From: Thermodesulfovibrio sp.
GTDB lineage: Bacteria > Nitrospirota > Thermodesulfovibrionia > UBA6902
NCBI GenBank assembly: GCA_026982355.1
Contig: JALSHG010000046.1
Coordinates: forward strand, 5,314-69,313
Length of the DNA: 64,000 nt
Direction: 5' to 3'
Positions 10,618-53,816 of the stretch are shown here, one piece after another (position 1 is the stretch's first letter; each line of letters begins with the position of its first letter). The notes under the pieces are model-generated. The model had not been told where the DNA came from, ran no database searches, and saw nothing but the letters and a program-made list of their open reading frames with translations. A program made the position numbers and the translations under genes.

Positions 10618-11534
10618 TCATGATTATCCGCAAAGGCATTCCTCTGATATTACTTGCTACGCTGCTGTTTGGCTGCAACGGGCGGCAGCCTGCGGAAAAG
10701 GACGTACCGGAGAAAGTCAGCGTGCCGGCGCCCGCCGTCCAGCCCCCCCCTGCGGAATACGCAGTACTCCTCGGACCGGCCAACGCGACGCGACGGAGTG
10801 TCATATCGTTGAATGCGGACAGGGCGATACTGAAAGATGCCGAGATAAGCTGGTATGTCAATGATACCAGGGTCGAATCCGCAAAGGGAACCCGTTTTGC
10901 CTCAGAAGAATTAAGAAAGGGGGACATTGTCCGCGCGGTGGTGGTCAAAGGCAAAAAGAGATTGCCTTCAAATGAAATAACAATAAAAAATACACCCCCC
11001 GTGACGCTCAGAGCCGAGTTGTCGCCCGCCATGCCGAGGGCCGACTCAACCGTAATAGTTAATATAAAAACCAGAGACATTGACGGCGATAATGTGACAT
11101 TCAAATACAAATGGACCGTAAACGGCAAGTTTGCGGGTGAGGAGGAATTTCTCGACGGAGACCTTAAGAGGGGAGATATAATCACCGTGGAAGTTACTCC
11201 TTTTGACGGCGATGATTACGGACAGACCGTGAGGCTCAAAACGGAGATATTCAACTCCCCCCCGGTTTTCTCGGCAAAACAACCTTACCTGGACGGCAAC
11301 ATCTATAAATACCAGGTCGCCGCCACTGACCCCGACGGCGACAAGCTCACGTATGCACTGAAGGAGAGCCCCGAGGGCATGAGCATTGACCCGGCCACGG
11401 GCATGATCACATGGAACGTCTCTTCGGAAAATGAGGGCGTTTATGACATAAAGGTATCCATAAGCGACAACAACGGCGGGGAGATCATCGTGCCTTTCAG
11501 CACGCGGATAAGCCTGGGCGGGGAATCCGAGTAG
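10614..11534 (+). CDS. lipoprotein with tandem beta-sandwich repeats and C-terminal cadherin-like (Cadg/He_PIG-type) domain
   Basis: ATGA overlap with the pilY1 stop; lipobox LLFGC; internal repeats (ISWYVNDTRVES... / FKYKWTVNGKFAGEE...); C-terminal YQVAATDPDGDKLTYAL...PEGMSIDPATGMITW motif typical of dystroglycan-type cadherin-like domains. Confidence 0.6.
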   Translation: MIMIIRKGIPLILLATLLFGCNGRQPAEKDVPEKVSVPAPAVQPPPAEYAVLLGPANATRRSVISLNADRAILKDAEISWYVNDTRVESAKGTRFASEELRKGDIVRAVVVKGKKRLPSNEITIKNTPPVTLRAELSPAMPRADSTVIVNIKTRDIDGDNVTFKYKWTVNGKFAGEEEFLDGDLKRGDIITVEVTPFDGDDYGQTVRLKTEIFNSPPVFSAKQPYLDGNIYKYQVAATDPDGDKLTYALKESPEGMSIDPATGMITWNVSSENEGVYDIKVSISDNNGGEIIVPFSTRISLGGESE

Positions 11535-11540
11535 GCATTG

Positions 11541-11625
11541 ATGTTGCATAAACCGGCAGGAGAGTCCAACCTAAGACCACCTGACTCTCCTGCCGGCGGG
11601 CGGTGTTTTTATGCCGCTGTAAGGT
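11541..11625 (+). repeat. MITE/REP-like palindromic element, short form (copy a)
   Basis: atgTTGCATAAACCGGCAGGAGAGTCC-15 nt-GACTCTCCTGCCGGCgggcggtgTTTTTATGCcgCTGTAAGGT; a 15-bp perfect stem flanked by inverted TTGCATAA/TTATGC arms; lies in the gap between the lipoprotein gene and queD. Confidence 0.85.
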
Positions 11626-11996
11626 TATGATTCGAAATACGTTGCCGAAGCCCCCTCGTTTTCCCATACCGTAACCGAGGATATGTCGCACCTGTCCTTT
11701 CCGATCCGTTTCCTGATCGACTCGAATATCCACTTGGCGATATTTTCGGAAGAAGGATTCTTTTCGGTGAATGGAAAGACTTCATTTAAAAATGAATGAT
11801 CCAGAGAGGCGATAACCTCGTTTGTTATCTTCTTCAACTCGTGGAAGTCTATAACCATTCCGGCATCATCCAGCCTTTCCGAGGAGACCGTTACCTGCAC
11901 CCTCCAGTTATGGCCGTGCAGTTCTTCGCATTTGCCTTTATATCCCCTGAGTTGATGCGCTGCGGAAAATTGTGATTCCACCATTAGCTCGTACAT
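11625..11996 (-). CDS. queD: 6-carboxy-5,6,7,8-tetrahydropterin synthase QueD
   Basis: 123 aa; FSAAHQLRGYKGKCEELHGHNWRVQV motif of the PTPS/QueD family (CxxxHGH zinc site). Confidence 0.85.
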   Translation of the reverse strand: MYELMVESQFSAAHQLRGYKGKCEELHGHNWRVQVTVSSERLDDAGMVIDFHELKKITNEVIASLDHSFLNEVFPFTEKNPSSENIAKWIFESIRKRIGKDRCDISSVTVWENEGASATYFES

Positions 11997-17248: not shown

Positions 17249-17261
17249 CAGCCACTAAACG

Positions 17262-17345
17262 CCGTGCGGGATATTTCCTGAAGGAATCGCAGATAAAGGA
17301 CTTCCCTGCCCGCAGGCGATGTTTTTATGCCACTGCAAGGTATAT
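17262..17345 (+). repeat. MITE-like element, right half of the long form (copy c)
   Basis: cgccgtgCGGGATATtTCCTGaaGgAATCGCAGATAAAGgacTTCCcTGCCCGCAGGCGaTGTTTTTATGCCACTGcAAGGT aligns with the right half of the long copy at 32290-32410. Confidence 0.7.
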
Positions 17346-28758: not shown

Positions 28759-28796
28759 GATCTTGCGCTCCCGCCCGCCTGTCTTATGGGCGACAT

Positions 28797-28898
28797 TAAG
28801 TGTAACCTTACAGCGGCATAAAACCACCGCCCGCGGGCAGGAGAGTCCGGAGGTTTTACGCCGGACTCCCCTGCCGGCTTGTGCGACATCAGGGTTAA
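28797..28898 (-). repeat. MITE/REP-like element, short form, inverted orientation (copy e)
   Basis: taaccTTACAGcgGCATAAAAcCACCgcccgcgGGCAGGAGAGTCCGGaggttttacgCCGGACTCcCCTGCCGGCTTgTGCgACatcagggTTAAG; in the divergent promoter region between the regulator and the kinase/pyrophosphorylase gene. Confidence 0.8.
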
Positions 28899-28942
28899 GT
28901 TTTATGTAACACTGACAATATGTTAAAATACTGAATCCGCCT

Positions 28943-32170: not shown

Positions 32171-32417
32171 TTTTATGCCACTGTAAGGTAAACCTTAATG
32201 TTGCATAAGCAGGCAGGAGAGTCCGCCGTAAAACCTTTATAAAGCGATGGGATATTGGAAAGATGTCCCTGTTGCAGGACGTAACGGAGAGTGAAATTCC
32301 AAAAGACGTTGATATGCCCTGCGGGATATGTCCTGGATGTATCGCAGATAAAGCTTTTCCTCCGGACTCTCCTGCCCGCAGGCGGTGTTTTTATGCAACT
32401 GTAAGGTAAACTTAACG
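32171..32417 (+). repeat. MITE-like element, long form (copy f, about 220 bp) preceded by a 24-bp right-end fragment of a second copy
   Basis: ttTTATGCCACTGTAAGGTAAAcc (orphan right end) then TTAATGTTGCATAAGCAGGCAGGAGAGTCCGCCGTAAAACCTTTATAAAGCGATGGGATATTGG...ATCGCAGATAAAGCTTTTCCTCCGGACTCTCCTGCCCGCAGGCGGTGTTTTTATGCAACTGTAAGGTAAACTTAACG; same ends as the short form plus an internal module of about 140 bp. Confidence 0.85.
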
Positions 32418-36090: not shown

Positions 36091-37329
36091 TCAGAAAAAC
36101 GTTACATTTCCCTCTTCTTCTGCAGGGCCCGTCCCATGGGGACCGCAACCACCGGTCGCTGATATGTCAAGTGCCTCCCGAGCCATTTTCCTTTCATGTT
36201 CCATAGTATAAAGAGCTTTAAGCTCCCTGAATATCTCATCTTTTATTCCGATCTGGTTCAAATTATACTCTATCTTTTCCGAGCCGAGCAAGGCATCAAT
36301 ATCTTCTCTGATTCTGCTTATCGCCTCAATTATATGCGATGTCATCTGTTTTGTTATATCTTCAAACTGCATATTAAACGTTATCTCCTTGATTTCTTCT
36401 TTGATTTTGTCCACTGACTGCATTGACGAACCGGTGATATCATTGAATTTTAATGTTGACTCTTTTATGGCATCAAAAACCGTTGCTACTATATTCTGGA
36501 CATCCCTTATCTTCATCTCCTCACTGCTTGCTGTATTCCTGATTTGATCGCCGATCCGGACAACATATTCATTAAGACCCTTGATCTCTTTTTTTATTAC
36601 AGAGGCCTGTTCTGCGGATTTTGCGGCAAGTTTTCTGACCTCGTCAGCAACTATTGCGAATCCTGCACCATATTCACCGGCTCTCGCTGCCTCAATGGAT
36701 GCATTAAGCGCAAGCAGGTTTGTCTGATCTGCGATCTCCGCAACATTATCAGAAAACGGAAGTATGTTGTCCAATACATTATCCATATTTTCAGCATATT
36801 CAGCAGCACTCTTGTATCTTTCAACGCTAACCAACAGTCTCTGCACGGTATCAGTTCCCAATGCCGTGACTTTTTCGAGAACTTTAGGCATATCCGGACA
36901 AATATTCTCCTGTTTCAGGCAGGACTGCAGATCTCTCTTGCAGTTCTCCAGGGCAGATCCTTCAATCGATTGAAGAGAAATGCACATCTTGAATATGGAC
37001 GCCCTGTTAAGGTTCTTAATTTCCTCGATTTGATGTACCAGGTCTGAAAAGCTCCTGACCACCTGTACCGACGACCCTTCTATCCTGTTGCTGGCGCTTA
37101 CAAGCTGACTTTCAACAACAGAAAGAATTTCTTTCGACGTCAAGGCATTTTTCTGAAATGATACGATCAGCTCTGCAATCCCTTTGATATGTTGTCTCTG
37201 TGCCTCACGGTATTCCATGAATTCGTCATTCAGACGCAACTTGTCGTTTCTGCACTTTCTCCATGCAACAACAGCGATTGTAAGCACAGCAATCAGGAAA
37301 ATGTTTATTATCCACAAATAAATATTCAC
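36091..37329 (-). CDS. methyl-accepting chemotaxis protein (membrane-anchored)
   Basis: N-terminal TM helix; signalling-domain signature [37 protein letters not shown]; last gene of the che operon (ATGA overlap with cheA). Confidence 0.9.
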   Translation of the reverse strand: MNIYLWIINIFLIAVLTIAVVAWRKCRNDKLRLNDEFMEYREAQRQHIKGIAELIVSFQKNALTSKEILSVVESQLVSASNRIEGSSVQVVRSFSDLVHQIEEIKNLNRASIFKMCISLQSIEGSALENCKRDLQSCLKQENICPDMPKVLEKVTALGTDTVQRLLVSVERYKSAAEYAENMDNVLDNILPFSDNVAEIADQTNLLALNASIEAARAGEYGAGFAIVADEVRKLAAKSAEQASVIKKEIKGLNEYVVRIGDQIRNTASSEEMKIRDVQNIVATVFDAIKESTLKFNDITGSSMQSVDKIKEEIKEITFNMQFEDITKQMTSHIIEAISRIREDIDALLGSEKIEYNLNQIGIKDEIFRELKALYTMEHERKMAREALDISATGGCGPHGTGPAEEEGNVTFF

Positions 37330-40214: not shown

Positions 40215-40232
40215 GGCTTTTCCCCCTTGCAA

Positions 40233-40440
40233 GGGCATAAAACACCGGCGGCTCCGGGCGGGAGAGCCTGCCTGAAAAGTTTTACATGCAATTCCTCAAC
40301 TGAATATTCCCCACGGCATATTGCCGTCTTGATCAATTTTATTTTCCGTTACGTTCTGCAACAAAGGCATGTTACCAACATCCCATCGCTTTATAAAGAT
40401 TTTACGCCGGACTCCGCTGCCGGCTTATGCAACATTGAGG
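40233..40440 (-). repeat. MITE-like element, long form, inverted orientation (copy j), between cheY and cheA
   Basis: The reverse complement reads cGTTGCcTcAATGTTGCATAAGCCGGCAGcgGAGTCCGgCGTAAAAtCTTTATAAAGCGATGGGATgTTGG...tcaggcaggctctcccGCCcGgAGccGccGGTGTTTTATGCcCtTG. Co-linear with copy f, including the internal module. Confidence 0.85.
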
Positions 40441-44592: not shown

Positions 44593-44624
44593 AGCTCATC
44601 TCTTCCCATCTCTCGAAGTTTAAC

Positions 44625-44702
44625 TTTGCAGTTGCATAAAATACCGGCGGCTGAGCAGGGGAGTAAGGTTTTCCGGCAGACTCCTCTGCCCGTTTATGCA
44701 AT
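44625..44702 (+). repeat. MITE/REP-like element, short form (copy k), between the cheW3 gene and cheB
   Basis: cagTTGCATAAAataCCGGCGGctGAGCAGGGGAGTaaggttttccggCAGACTCCTCTGCCCGTTTATGCAAt. Confidence 0.75.
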
Positions 44703-44715
44703 ATTTAGACAACGG

Positions 44716-46792: not shown

Positions 46793-48736
46793 CTACTGCA
46801 TATTCTGCATTTCATCTGCCTGGCTTGATATATCCTCGATAGCCTCGGAGATATTCTGCATGCCCTTGCTGCCTTCCTCTGCCGCCCTTGCCGCTTCTTC
46901 AGCCGCCCGCCTGCTCTCAGCAGCACCTTCCTTTATCTGTTTGACAGCCGTGTTGGCCTGTTCAATAGCCGCCAGGATTTCCGACGTGTTGCTGTTAATC
47001 TCTGCGATTTCTTCATGAACAGTCTCGGTCTCTTTTTCAATAGCTTTAAGGTTTGTCGTTGATGTTTTGGCGTTTTCAACTTCCCGGGAAGCTGTCTTTC
47101 CTGCATGGTTAATATTAGCTGAAGCTTGGATTATCTGGTGTTGCATGTTTCTCACCATATCCTTTATCTTGTCAGCATTCTCTGATGATTCGTTCGCCAG
47201 CGTCCGGATATCGCCTGCGACAACGGAAAACCCCCTTCCAAATTCCCCTGCGCGTGCCGCCTCTACCGAGCCGTTTACGGCCAACATGTTTGTCATCAGG
47301 GTGACATTTACTATCTGATCCACTATTTTGTTGATATTGTTTGTTTTGTCCTCAAGTATGCGGATGTTATCAGAGGACTTACCGGATTTTTCAGCCATTT
47401 CCCCGATACTTGCAATCATGGTATCAATATTATTCTTATTTTTTGTAAGCAATTCCTTGAGCGCCGATATCTTTTCAGCCGATTCTTCGGCTGTATCACT
47501 TGTGCTCTTAGCAGAATCTTTAATCCGCCTGCCTAATTCTTCACTCTCGTTTGCCCTTTTTTCTTGTATCACGGCTGCCCTCGATATCTGTTCTATGGCG
47601 ACCGTTATCTGTTTTGCAGCATTGGTTGCCTCTTCAATGTTGGCGGAGAGTTCTTCGGCTGATGCGGCTATTTCTTCCGCGGATTTCTGGATGTCTGTGG
47701 AGTTTTTAAGTGAATCGGTAAGTTCGGCAAGTTCATTTGAAGCAATCTGCATCTCTGAAAATGCCTTATTCTGCTCCTGTATAGCCTTTGAAGATTCCTC
47801 TGCAGAGCTGGACGCCTCCTCAGCACCTGCGGCTATTTCTTCCGCACTTTTCAGCAACTCTCCGGCTGCTGATTGCATGTCAGCGGCTTTATGGGTTATT
47901 TCCTCACAGCTCTTTACAACACTATCAAAATCTCTGTCAATCTGATTAAGTTCAAGAATTATTGACTCTGCCTTCTCGGCTTCTTCCCTTGCAAGTCTGC
48001 CGGTGCTTTCCACATCCGCCACAACCTGCTGAACCTGCTGTTGTATATCATCGACTACCTCTCTAATGCCCCTTGCGCTTCCCTCGGAGGTCTCTGCCAG
48101 ATTCCTTACTTCATCTGCAACAACTGCAAAACCCCTCCCATGCTCACCTGCACGTGCTGCCTCGATCGCTGCATTGAGAGCAAGGAGGTTTGTCTGGTCG
48201 GCAATGCGGACAACAGCGCCAACAATATCACCAATCTCTTCTGAATGTTTCTCCAGCTCTTTTATCATTTCTGTAGACTTTATGTTTACCTTGGCTGCAT
48301 CGCCCACTCCTTTTATCAAAGCCCTGATATCGACTACCGTCGTGCGGACCAGTTCCTGCAGTTTTCTCCCGTTATCAAGAGAACGTTTCGCTCTTTCTGC
48401 TGCTATTACTGAAGACTTTTCGATCTGGCTGATTGCCGCCCTCGTTTGTTCGGAGGCTGAGGATGCCTGCTCAGCAGCACTCGCTATGGATTGCATATTT
48501 TTCCCTAACTGCTCGGAAGCACTTCCGGCCTCTTCAAGAGACGACGCCATTTCCTCGACAGCAGCAGCCAATCTTTCAGCAAGTTGCTGCTGTCGAGCAA
48601 GGGTCCGTGCCTTAGCCTTTTCCTGCGCCAATCGTTTTGCCTCCTCCCTCTTTCTTGTCATGTCGCCGTTTCCATCTTCTTTTACCGCTCCTATACCTTT
48701 GTTGATTACATCGGGTGATAATAATTTTTTTGCCAT
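46793..48736 (-). CDS. soluble methyl-accepting chemotaxis protein with two tandem signalling (MA) domains
   Basis: 647 aa, no TM segment. Two complete highly conserved MCP cores: [38 protein letters not shown] and [35 protein letters not shown], each flanked by heptad-rich methylation-helix-like sequence. Confidence 0.85.
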
Positions 48737-53711: not shown

Positions 53712-53812
53712 TGTATAAACCTTACAGTTGCATAAAAGCATCGCCCTGCGGGCAGGAGAATGTGCGGCAGGTTTTACGCCGGGCTCTCCTGCCGGCTTAT
53801 GCAACATCAAGT
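53712..53812 (-). repeat. MITE/REP-like element, short form, inverted orientation (copy m) between secY and map
   Basis: ACCTTACAGttGCATAAAAgCAtCGCCctgcgGGCAGGAGAaTgtgcggcaggttttacgCCGGgCTCTCCTGCCGGCTTATGCAACATcAAG; occupies the slot where adk normally lies. Confidence 0.85.
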
Positions 53813-53816
53813 TTAA

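What the first reader, a model, noticed from the sequence alone, without database searches (positions are those of the whole stretch)
32195..32417. Long-form element carries a conserved ~140-bp internal module with a possible micro-ORF (two full copies, one deleted copy)
Copy f (32195-32417, + orientation) and copy j (40233-40440, - orientation) are co-linear over about 210 bp. They share an internal module: ...CGTAAAA(C/T)CTTTATAAAGCGATGGGAT(A/G)TTGG(A/T)AA(G/C)ATG(T/C)C(C/T)(C/T)TGTTGCAG(G/A)ACGTAACGGA(G/A)A...AAATT...GA(C/T)ATGCC.TG.GG.ATAT.... In both copies an ATG opens a reading frame. Copy f, 32263-32409, gives MSLLQDVTESEIPKDVDMPCGICPGCIADKAFPPDSPARRRCFYATVR. Copy j, 40370-40296 on the minus strand, gives MPLLQNVTENKIDQDGNMPWGIFS*. 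The first 18 residues are about 55% identical (M.LLQ.VTE..I..D..M). Copy n (58848-59002) retains the flanks but has lost the middle of the module, and copy c (17262-17345) is the right half only. The module could be a small RNA gene, the remnant of a transposase-independent cargo, or a leader-peptide-like micro-protein. The substitution pattern between the two copies mixes synonymous and non-synonymous changes, so coding status is unproven.
Basis: partly seen in the sequence, partly recalled or inferred. Interest (0 to 1): 0.7.

Follow-up and report, generated by a model that had tools for sequence, protein, structure and literature searches.

The report
Long-form MITE, micro-ORF not real
The 220-bp sequence is one copy of a very abundant miniature transposable element (MITE) found in an uncultured bacterial lineage. 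Its conserved middle section is non-coding element DNA, and the small reading frame in it shows no sign of being a gene.

Summary
Copies f (32193-32406, +) and j (40225-40440, -) are co-linear: 76% identity over 207 bp, E=7e-38. Copies n and c are partial copies, as described.

This is a MITE family:
- The terminal inverted repeats are CCTTAAYGTTGCATAA...TTATGCMACTGTAAGG.
- It has a 4-bp AT-rich target-site duplication: identical flanks in 44 of 82 copies against 12.8 expected. For f the duplication is TAAA.
- I found no transposase.
- More than 150 long-form copies occur in at least four related genomes or metagenomes.

The roughly 125-bp internal module (32237-32361) is what separates long forms from the roughly 95-bp short forms. 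At one orthologous site the window has a short form where a related genome has a long form.

The micro-ORF is not supported:
- The start codon is ATG in almost all copies of one genome but in 1 of 24 copies in another.
- Two large subfamilies read the second half in a different frame.
- Stop-creating variants occur at the neutral rate, and crude omega is 0.7-1.35.
- The stop codon of f lies in the target-site duplication.
- A search of 5.8 billion proteins found only 7 tiny unannotated ORFs.

No independent RNA gene is supported either. There is no Rfam match, covariation occurs only in the outer arms, and the apical 100 nt is not unusually stable.

One result is real and unexplained. Both long and short forms lie almost always in the sense direction of flanking co-directional genes (57:6), including inside the ribosomal-protein operon.

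The parts
32193..32406 (+). Copy f: a complete long-form MITE of 214 bp
   Evidence: nhmmer hit to element-model positions 4-229, E=7e-73. Ends were fixed by alignment to more than 100 copies. As RNA it folds to -87.7 kcal/mol, z=-6.6.
32189..32192 (.). Left copy of the 4-bp target-site duplication (TAAA)
   Evidence: The same 4 bases flank both ends. Family-wide, 44 of 82 copies have identical 4-nt flanks, against 12.8 (maximum 22) in 1000 shuffles.
32407..32410 (.). Right copy of the target-site duplication (TAAA). Its first three bases are the stop codon of the putative micro-ORF.
   Evidence: Sequence reading. Peptide tails after ...ATVR differ in every copy.
32193..32236 (+). Left arm: TIR tip CCTTAATGTTGCATAA, local palindrome GGCAGGAGAGTCCGCC, then GTAAAACCT
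   Evidence: Shared with the short forms. It pairs with the right arm, with compensatory changes at 7 pairs.
32237..32361 (+). Internal module of about 125 bp, present only in long forms. It is bounded by the two most conserved boxes of the element: CGTAAAACCTTTATAAAGCGAT (32227-32248) and TATCGCAGATAAAGCTTTTCC (32340-32360).
   Evidence: The short-form junction is AAAACCT|CCGGACTC. Conservation profile: right box 0.956, against 0.84-0.93 for the arms and 0.88 for the apex. The box stems are invariant in 101-103 of 103 copies, with no covariation.
32263..32409 (+). Putative 48-codon micro-ORF. Judged not to be a gene.
   Evidence: Start codon, frame and stop statistics are. Of shuffles of f, 16% carry an ATG-ORF of at least 48 codons. 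No Pfam family matches. Only 7 small ORFs were found in the protein database.
32362..32406 (+). Right arm. It carries about 11 extra nt relative to the left arm, forming a weak terminator-like hairpin (32372-32385) followed by TGTTTTTATG.
   Evidence: Terminator-like consensus match. The asymmetry between arms is visible in the alignments.
32171..32188 (+). Orphan right end of another copy (TTTTATGCCACTGTAAGG), directly upstream of f
   Evidence: Direct-repeat family D7 and sequence reading.
40225..40440 (-). Copy j: a degenerate long form between cheY and cheA, in sense orientation. No target-site duplication is left, its right box has diverged, and an in-frame stop falls at codon 25.
   Evidence: Its fold is no better than shuffles (z=-0.39).
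58849..59005 (-). Copy n: a medium form lacking about 50 nt of the module. It lies between rplN (L14) and rplX (L24), in sense orientation.
   Evidence: nhmmer positions 6-102 and 151-227. Flanking genes were identified by Pfam.
17257..17340 (+). Copy c: right half only, starting just after the stop codon of the upstream gene
   Evidence: nhmmer positions 127-230 and sequence.
28796..28899 (-). Short-form copy. At the orthologous site of a related MAG (L088:7047-7264) there is a long form.
   Evidence: Alignment with shared flanks. Synteny at 75-91% amino-acid identity.
53712..53816 (-). Short-form copy between secY and map, in sense orientation
44616..44714 (-). Short-form copy between the cheW-like gene and cheB, in sense orientation
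11534..11634 (+). Short-form copy after the gene ending at 11534

Best explanation

Shown:
- The element has imperfect terminal inverted repeats of 16-18 bp.
- It duplicates a 4-bp AT-rich target (TTAA, TAAA or TTTA).
- It carries no transposase.
- It sits in intergenic spacers.
- It is present or absent, or long versus short, at orthologous sites of related genomes.

Inferred: it is mobilised in trans by a cut-and-paste DDE-type transposase, which I did not find.

The 125-bp module is the inner stem and apex of the element's long hairpin. Short forms are the same element with the module removed at a CCT...CCT junction.

The reading frame in the module is an accident of the family consensus that the copies inherit. 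It is not a gene.

Inferred: the module's two inner inverted boxes are the best-conserved part and most likely serve the element's own propagation, for example as inner transposase-binding sites or to stabilise the hairpin.

The elements lie in operon spacers in the sense direction, so they are almost certainly transcribed as part of host mRNAs, forming a long hairpin followed by a U-rich tract. Inferred: there they probably act as a leaky terminator, a 3'-end stabiliser or a processing site.
For: - **Terminal repeats, multiplicity and partial forms:**
- **Target-site duplication:** 44 of 82 identical 4-mers against 12.8 expected, and none at 5 or 6 nt.
- **No transposase:** no Pfam domain in the peptide, no multi-copy ORF in about 0.9 Mb of loci, and only housekeeping genes among the 19 window ORFs scanned against Pfam (not all 34 ORFs of at least 220 aa were scanned).
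- **Spread:** two MAGs, one JGI metagenome and one NCBI assembly.
- **Orthologous sites:** long versus short and filled versus unfilled.
- **ORF tests:**
  - ATG frequency is 64/67 (M), 13/22 (D) and 1/24 (N).
  - Shifted-frame subfamilies exist.
  - Stop-creating variants, observed/expected: 3/4.3, 2/1.9, 3/3.4, 0/0.9.
  - Crude omega is 0.69-1.35.
  - The synonymous fraction in the ORF frame does not differ significantly from the other frames.
  - The C-terminal tails come from whatever flanks each copy.
- **Hairpin:** 98% of stem cells are paired, with compensatory changes confined to the arms.
- **Sense orientation:** long forms 18:1 and 26:5, short forms 3:0 and 10:0. In the window, 5 of 5 copies are sense.
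Against: - No autonomous parent element with matching ends was found, so the transposase class is inferred only from the 4-bp duplication.
- In 38 of 82 copies the duplication is imperfect.
- One subfamily shows a borderline excess of synonymous variants (46 against 35.6 expected, p=0.05).
- ATG is retained in 64 of 67 copies of one genome, so a weak constraint on the first 24 or so codons cannot be completely excluded.
- The right inner box is more conserved than the terminal repeats, which a purely selfish, decaying element does not by itself explain.
- The orientation bias is unexplained. Stem mismatches show no G·U over A·C excess, which would have pointed to RNA-level selection.
Confidence: 0.85

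Rival explanations
1. The module encodes a real micro-protein or leader peptide of about 24-48 aa. Translation of it through the right arm could matter, for example for translational coupling in operons, as proposed for the small ORFs of mycobacterial MIRUs.
For: - The frame is open in f and in most copies of two genomes.
- ATG is kept in 64/67 copies of metagenome Ga0256839.
- The synonymous fraction is slightly higher in this frame in both data sets: 0.30 against 0.21-0.25, and 0.31 against 0.22-0.24.
- Subfamily A has omega of about 0.69, p=0.05.
- The elements lie in sense orientation in operon spacers.
Against: - ATG is replaced by ACG, ACA or AGG in 23/24 copies of one MAG and lost in 9/22 copies of another.
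- Two abundant subfamilies use different frames for the second half.
- Stops arise at the neutral rate.
- j has a stop at codon 25.
- The stop of f lies in the target-site duplication, and the C-termini vary with the flanks.
- There is no usable Shine-Dalgarno spacing, and the start codon sits inside the stem (sequence).
- The ORF does not overlap the neighbouring stop or start codons.
- Of shuffles, 16% give an equally long ORF.
- Short forms lack the ORF yet show the same orientation bias.
Confidence: 0.04
2. The module is an independent functional RNA, either a small RNA gene or a cis-regulatory structured RNA, carried as cargo by the element.
For: - The module is conserved across at least four genomes.
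- The inner boxes are nearly invariant.
- f folds far better than shuffles (z=-6.6).
- The orientation is sense.
- MITE-derived small RNAs are known (review PMC10969869).
Against: - No Rfam family matches, even at E up to 10.
- No compensatory change occurs in any module helix among 103 copies.
- The apical 100 nt has z of about -1.1 on both strands.
- The stability of f comes from the arm-to-arm stem.
- The apex tolerates a roughly 95-bp nested insertion and complete replacement by other sequences in copies that still multiplied.
- No promoter-like site lies inside the element.
- There is no G·U over A·C bias.
Confidence: 0.07
3. The element is a REPIN-like doublet of REP palindromes moved by a RAYT or IS200/IS605-type HUH transposase through single-stranded DNA. 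It would then not be a DDE-type MITE.
For: - Each arm contains its own palindrome (GGCAGR-NNNN-YCTGCC).
- The two arms are inverted and form a long hairpin.
- Arm complementarity is kept within copies, and the four positions of the sixth stem pair change together.
- An orientation bias is typical of single-strand transposition.
Against: - A genuine variable 4-bp target-site duplication is present. HUH transposases do not make one (established knowledge of IS200/IS605 and REP/RAYT systems).
- The terminal inverted repeats extend to the very tips.
- In the window, f (+) and j (-) lie 8 kb apart in opposite orientations, each following local transcription. A replication-fork-directed mechanism would not predict that.
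- No RAYT gene was seen in the loci, although I did not search for one systematically.
Confidence: 0.04

Closest known systems
Correia elements (NEMIS/CREE) of Neisseria
   Same: - Terminal inverted repeats with a short AT target duplication.
- Hundreds of intergenic copies.
- Long and short size classes that differ by an internal segment.
- Co-transcribed with neighbouring genes as long hairpins, which RNase III cleaves in Neisseria (review PMC10969869).
   Different: - No sequence similarity.
- No IHF site or outward promoter was identified here.
- RNase III processing is untested here.
ERIC/IRU elements of enterobacteria and yersiniae
   Same: - An imperfect palindrome of about 127 bp with longer variants carrying internal insertions.
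- Located in transcribed intergenic regions.
- In Yersinia, insertion at the 3' ends of genes lowers the level of the ERIC-containing transcripts through an RNase E site (review PMC10969869).
- Small ORFs have been noted in enterobacterial small mobile sequences in general (Delihas 2007, cited in PMC3184786).
   Different: - A different sequence and a different host lineage.
- The target-site duplication is clear here.
- Any effect on mRNA has not been measured here.
[quoted passage not shown]
   Same: - A hairpin plus U-tract motif at one end.
- A positional bias towards gene 3' ends.
- Elements inserting into one another (PMC3184786, PMC10969869).
   Different: - The terminator-like hairpin here is weak (5 bp).
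- Copies sit inside essential ribosomal-protein and che operons, so termination must be leaky if it happens at all.
- One genome's subfamily lacks the U-tract.
Mycobacterial MIRUs
   Same: - They lie in operon spacers and are transcribed in polycistronic mRNA.
- They have tetranucleotide direct repeats.
- They contain small ORFs (PMC3184786).
   Different: - MIRU ORFs overlap the stop and start codons of their neighbours. The ORF here does not, and it is neither frame- nor start-conserved.
- MIRUs occur as tandem units. These elements are single hairpin units.
REPINs / REP-RAYT systems
   Same: Inverted pairs of short palindromes forming a long hairpin, in high copy number, with arms that evolve in concert.
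   Different: REPINs have no target-site duplication and no terminal inverted repeats reaching the tips. A 4-bp duplication is demonstrated here.

Membership tests
MITE (non-autonomous TIR transposon) | Small size (under about 500 bp) with no transposase gene | tested here: met
   The long form is 214-230 bp and the short form about 95 bp. The only ORF is 48 codons, with no Pfam hit.
MITE (non-autonomous TIR transposon) | Terminal inverted repeats | tested here: met
   The ends are CCTTAAYGTTGCATAA and TTATGCMACTGTAAGG. Complementarity continues inward through the arms.
MITE (non-autonomous TIR transposon) | Target-site duplication of fixed length and variable sequence | tested here: met
   Identical 4-nt flanks in 44/82 copies, against 12.8 in shuffles (maximum 22), and 0 at 5 or 6 nt. 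There are 12 different duplicated 4-mers.
MITE (non-autonomous TIR transposon) | Many dispersed copies, mainly intergenic | tested here: met
   More than 150 long-form copies in four data sets. Incidental copies run at about 1 per 5 kb. All window copies are intergenic.
MITE (non-autonomous TIR transposon) | Filled versus empty orthologous sites | tested here: inconclusive
   L110 carries the element where the L038 ortholog does not. However, the spacer has diverged and no clean empty site with a single copy of the target can be read. Long versus short at one orthologous site is clear.
MITE (non-autonomous TIR transposon) | A cognate autonomous IS with the same ends | tested here: not met
   No transposase-sized ORF bounded by the ends could be singled out, and there was no multi-copy ORF in about 0.9 Mb of loci. 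The DDE_Tnp_1 gene at the end of L092 has no matching end upstream. Whole genomes could not be searched.
Protein-coding small ORF | Conserved start codon and ribosome-binding site | tested here: not met
   ATG frequency is 64/67, 13/22 and 1/24 in three genomes. GGAAAG abuts the ATG with no spacer, and the start lies in a stem.
Protein-coding small ORF | Reading frame preserved, with indels in multiples of three | tested here: not met
   A -1 shift is shared by all 23 N-type copies. 32 of 62 M copies are in another frame after codon 24. There are further single shifts in L032, L059, L070, L104, L141.
Protein-coding small ORF | Purifying selection: an excess of synonymous change and a deficit of stops | tested here: not met
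   Crude omega is 0.69 (p=0.05), 1.05, 0.70, 0.84 and 1.35. Stops occur at expectation. Comparisons between frames are not significant, p=0.12-0.17.
Protein-coding small ORF | Homologues annotated or embedded in larger proteins | tested here: not met
   7 hits of 47-81 aa, unnamed and without Pfam domains, each on one contig and each with a different tail.
Known structured RNA family (Rfam) | Match to a curated covariance model | tested here: not met
   0 hits at gathering score in the window. Only chance-level hits (E of 1.5 or more) at a permissive threshold.
Structured RNA (novel) | Compensatory base changes in module helices | tested here: not met
   Among 103 copies, all both-side changes lie in the outer arms. 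Module helices are invariant or change on one side only.
REPIN / REP-RAYT | No target-site duplication, and mobilisation by an HUH tyrosine transposase | tested here: not met
   A 4-bp duplication is present. The presence of a RAYT gene was not tested.
Intrinsic terminator | GC-rich hairpin directly followed by a U-tract, at the end of a transcription unit | tested here: inconclusive
   There is a minimal match at 32372-32395. However, copies sit inside the r-protein and che operons, and one subfamily lacks the U-tract. Termination itself is not testable here.

The most novel reading that the evidence does not exclude
The family is not merely selfish DNA. Its hairpin plus U-tract may have been co-opted as an orientation-dependent RNA element in operon spacers, for example a leaky terminator, a 3'-end protector or an RNase III site that sets relative cistron levels. 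Host selection would then explain the 57:6 sense bias. Alternatively, the bias and the concerted evolution of the arms may reflect an unusual transcription-coupled or hairpin-dependent insertion mechanism. In either case, the near-invariant inner boxes of the long form would be a functional site rather than filler.
Probability: 0.15. Interest if true: 0.5.

Novelty: new member of a known kind. Interest (0 to 1): 0.25.

Why it matters
Practical value comes first. These elements break assemblies: a Logan contig ends exactly at copy j. They also generate spurious small ORF calls and inflate 'conserved intergenic motif' lists in this uncultured lineage. Recognising the family removes a false micro-protein or small-RNA candidate.

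Biologically, it adds a well-defined MITE family. It has a 4-bp duplication, long, medium and short forms, and nested insertions, at roughly one copy per 5 kb even inside ribosomal-protein operons. Its strong sense-strand bias could be used to study how such hairpins are tolerated or exploited in polycistronic mRNAs.

Tried and rejected
- **Rfam:** searched at gathering and at permissive thresholds; nothing.
- **Peptide against Pfam:** nothing.
- **Peptide against the 5.8-billion-protein set:** only 7 tiny ORFs and no larger protein, so the idea that the ORF is a relic of a transposase N-terminus got no support.
- **BLAST of f against plasmid and phage collections:** no match.
- **Viral contig scan:** one chance match.
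- **Parent transposase:** pairing element ends 0.7-4 kb apart gave hundreds of false pairs because copies are so dense. All-against-all comparison of ORFs found no multi-copy protein. The transposase at the edge of L092 lacks the ends.
- **Strand-specific RNA selection (G·U versus A·C mismatches):** no asymmetry.
- **Replication direction from GC skew:** uninformative, because skew follows the coding strand.
- **Rho-avoidance explanation for the orientation bias:** the module's sense strand is G-rich, with GC skew +0.34. The explanation is weakened because short forms lacking the module show the same bias.
- **Gene caller:** my crude first ORF-based caller mis-called genes around f and j. It was replaced by a start-trimming caller and checked against the called genes of L089.
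- **Taxon:** I could not name it beyond 'related to MAGs labelled Deferribacteres bacterium M_MaxBin.054 and Nitrospirae bacterium S140_38'.

Full report
**Observation.**
Copy f and copy j are real, co-linear copies. blastn gives 76.3% identity over 207 bp (E=6.8e-38), and the repeat finder lists them as the longest inverted pair in the window (I1).

A profile built from long copies matches the window copies as follows:

| Copy | Profile positions matched |
|---|---|
| f | 4-229 |
| j | 5-227 |
| n | 6-102 and 151-227 |
| c | 127-230 |

So 'n lost the middle' and 'c is the right half' are correct. The window also holds four short forms of about 95 bp (11534-11634, 28796-28899, 44616-44714, 53712-53816) and several solo arms.

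**Conservation beyond the window.**
It returned dozens of copies in two MAGs: 'Deferribacteres bacterium M_MaxBin.054' (D) and 'Nitrospirae bacterium S140_38' (N). nhmmer found 48 near-full copies in those loci.
- A metagenome scan used a pattern lying upstream of the putative start codon, so it was unbiased with respect to the ORF. It returned 60 stretches, 59 of them from JGI metagenome Ga0256839 (M). These held 67-73 long copies that are 84-96% identical to f.
- Three more copies are in L091 (same sample as the window's twin contig) and L092 (GCA_054018075.1).
- The genomes are related. Window genes 24.7-29.6 kb are syntenic with D locus L088 at 75-91% amino-acid identity. M loci share orthologues with both D and N loci.

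**What it is.**
Aligning more than 100 copies fixes the ends at CCTTAAYGTTGCAT...ATGCMACTGTAAGG.
- The four bases outside the two ends are identical in 44 of 82 copies, against 12.8 (maximum 22) in 1000 shuffles. There is no signal at 5 or 6 nt. The duplicated 4-mers vary: TTAA 14, TAAA 13, TTTA 4, plus nine others. This is a genuine 4-bp target-site duplication.
- For f, the element is 32193-32406 and TAAA flanks both sides (32189-92, 32407-10).
- The element carries no transposase and is very dense, with about one incidental copy or fragment per 5 kb in the M loci.
- The 19 window ORFs I scanned against Pfam are ordinary chromosomal genes: ruvB, eno, pyrG, a che operon, rpoA, secY and ribosomal proteins.

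These are the defining features of a MITE. I found no parent IS, so the transposase class is inferred.

**The module.**
Short forms join ...GTAAAACCT directly to CCGGACTC.... The module is therefore 32237-32361, about 125 bp.
- At an orthologous intergenic site with shared flanks, the window has a short form (28796-28899) and the D MAG has a long form (L088:7047-7264). Long and short forms interconvert or replace each other in situ. Deletion of the inner part of the hairpin at the CCT...CCT junction is the simplest reading.
- Among incidental copies in M, short forms outnumber long forms 29 to 11.
- The apex is dispensable for multiplication. Several D copies carry the same roughly 95-bp nested palindromic insertion there, and other copies have entirely different inner sequences between the same arms and right box.
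- The two boxes bounding the module are the most conserved part of the element. They are CGTAAAACCTTTATAAAGCGAT and its partial inverse TATCGCAGATAAAGCTTTTCC. The right box was not part of any search pattern. Its mean major-allele frequency is 0.956, against 0.84-0.93 for the arms and 0.88 for the apex.

**Coding test.**
- *Start codon:* ATG in 64/67 (M), 13/22 (D) and 1/24 (N, mostly ACG).
- *Frame:*
  - All 23 N copies share a -1 deletion after GATATG.
  - In M, 30 copies keep the f frame (...CPEGIADKAFPPDSPARRRCFYATVR).
  - 32 M copies read ...LSKVSQIKLFRRTPLPAGGIFMPL* after codon 24.
  - Other copies have single shifts.
- *Stops:* j and four D copies stop at codon 25.
- *Spectrum-corrected expectations:*

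| Set | Synonymous variants, observed / expected | Stop-creating variants, observed / expected | Crude omega |
|---|---|---|---|
| M subfamily A | 46 / 35.6 (p=0.05) | 3 / 4.3 | 0.69 |
| M subfamily B | 24 / 24.9 | 2 / 1.9 | 1.05 |
| D | 28 / 24.6 | 3 / 3.4 | 0.84 |
| N | 7 / 8.8 | 0 / 0.9 | 1.35 |

- *Frame comparison:* the ORF frame has the highest synonymous fraction in both data sets (0.30-0.33 against 0.20-0.27), but not significantly (p=0.12-0.17).
- *Stop codon of f:* it is the first three bases of the target-site duplication. In other copies the frame runs into unrelated flanks.
- *Chance:* 16% of shuffles of f contain an ATG-ORF of at least 48 codons.
- *Database searches:* no Pfam family matches. 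The 5.8-billion-protein search found only seven unnamed ORFs of 47-81 aa and no larger protein.

I conclude that the ORF is inherited from the family consensus and is not under protein-level selection. A weak residual trend in one subfamily is noted.

**RNA test.**
- No Rfam family matches.
- RNAalifold and explicit pair counts show a long arm-to-arm stem. It is 98% paired, against 94.1% in shuffles and 40-50% when partners are slid.
- All compensatory changes lie in the outer arms, which short forms share.
- In 103 copies, the module's basal helices (CUUUAU/AUAAAG, GCGAU/AUCGC) are invariant, and the predicted apical helices show only one-sided changes.
- The apical 100 nt has z of about -1.1 on either strand.
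- f as a whole folds exceptionally well (z=-6.6). j does not (z=-0.39).
- Stem mismatches show no G·U over A·C excess.

So there is no evidence for a distinct RNA gene in the module. The arms do co-evolve: the sixth pair of each arm's local palindrome changes at four positions in concert, and the loops stay complementary. Subfamily descent could produce that without selection, because the shuffle control does not preserve relatedness.

**Orientation.**
I used ORF-based gene calls and counted only copies flanked by two genes on the same strand.

| Form and data set | Sense : antisense | p |
|---|---|---|
| Long, D/N/W loci | 18:1 | 7.6e-5 |
| Long, M | 26:5 | 1.9e-4 |
| Short, D/N/W loci | 3:0 | 0.25 |
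| Short, M | 10:0 | 0.002 |

- In the window, f is + among + genes. Copies j, n, 44616 and 53712 are - among - genes.
- Copy n lies between rplN and rplX, and a short form lies between secY and map. Strong transcription termination by these elements is therefore implausible.
- f and j lie 8 kb apart in opposite orientations, each matching local transcription. This argues against a purely replication-directed insertion bias.
- The only asymmetry common to long and short forms is the extra segment in the right arm. In the sense orientation it gives a weak hairpin plus U-tract. One genome's subfamily lacks that U-tract.
- The module's sense strand is G-rich, which would avoid Rho loading. That cannot be the whole story, because short forms show the same bias.

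I cannot decide between host selection on the transcript and a target or transcription-coupled insertion preference. In element orientation, TAAA outnumbers TTTA as the duplicated target by about 3:1.

**Comparison and verdict.**
The closest known systems are the following (reviews PMC10969869 and PMC3184786):
- Correia: long and short classes, co-transcribed hairpins.
- ERIC: effects on the mRNA of the upstream gene.
- SPRITE: terminator-like element.
- MIRU: operon spacers, small ORFs.

No sequence relative was found in the plasmid, phage or viral collections. No paper in the held library contains both 'miniature inverted-repeat transposable' and 'Nitrospirae'.

The finding is a new member of a known kind. 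The sense-strand bias and the highly conserved inner boxes are the only points that merit follow-up.

Noticed in passing
window 32171-32188: An orphan right end of another copy (TTTTATGCCACTGTAAGG) lies directly after the stop codon of the upstream gene and directly before f's target duplication. So f inserted next to, or into, an older copy.
   Followed up: partly
window 28796-28899 versus L088:7047-7264: The same orthologous intergenic site holds a short form in the window and a long form in a related MAG, with shared flanks. The window additionally has a 17-bp TIR-like remnant (TCAGTGTTACATAAAAC) upstream.
   Followed up: yes
L016, L024, L026, L058, L083, L012/L013 (D MAG); also L004:3469-3573, L010:382-481, L032:1963-2071: A second small palindromic element of about 95 bp (…GGCCGT..CCGTGTCCGT…ACGGACACG…) is nested in the apex of the long form. 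This composite occurs in several copies, so it has itself multiplied.
   Followed up: partly
L013:2680-2916, L004:2142-2221 and 7039-7121, L088:3542-3626, L002:6478-6558, L026:4322-4410; L018:123-224, L066:248-352, L069:3699-3804: Other inner sequences sit between the same arms and right box: a GGGTGCAGGGTGCAG…CCCCCTCCCC…GGGGGAGGGGG segment, or a CCCCTTAAGTTAAGGGGAGG segment. This is a mosaic repeat landscape.
   Followed up: no
window 58849-59005, 53712-53816, 61422-61453: Element copies sit inside the ribosomal-protein/secY cluster, all on the gene strand: between rplN and rplX, between secY and map, and a fragment between rpsS and rplV.
   Followed up: partly
all loci; window copies f, j, n, 44616, 53712: There is a strong sense-orientation bias relative to co-directional flanking genes: long forms 44:6, short forms 13:0. 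It is unexplained.
   Followed up: partly
L090 (logan SRR7968108_43752), end of contig = window 40406: A public short-read contig identical to the window ends inside copy j. The repeat breaks assemblies.
   Followed up: no
window, whole: GC skew and AT skew switch sign with gene strand (about ±0.15-0.25). The coding strands of this organism are strongly purine-rich.
   Followed up: no
window 36615-36735 and 48085-48205: A 121-nt direct repeat at 71% identity lies inside two genes of the chemotaxis cluster. They are probably paralogous domains.
   Followed up: no
L101:136-360 (Ga0256839): A copy 96% identical to f occurs in a different metagenome. None of the 0.5 Mb loaded from that metagenome matched any other window DNA at megablast level. 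The f-like subfamily is therefore young, or the sampled loci simply do not overlap the window.
   Followed up: no
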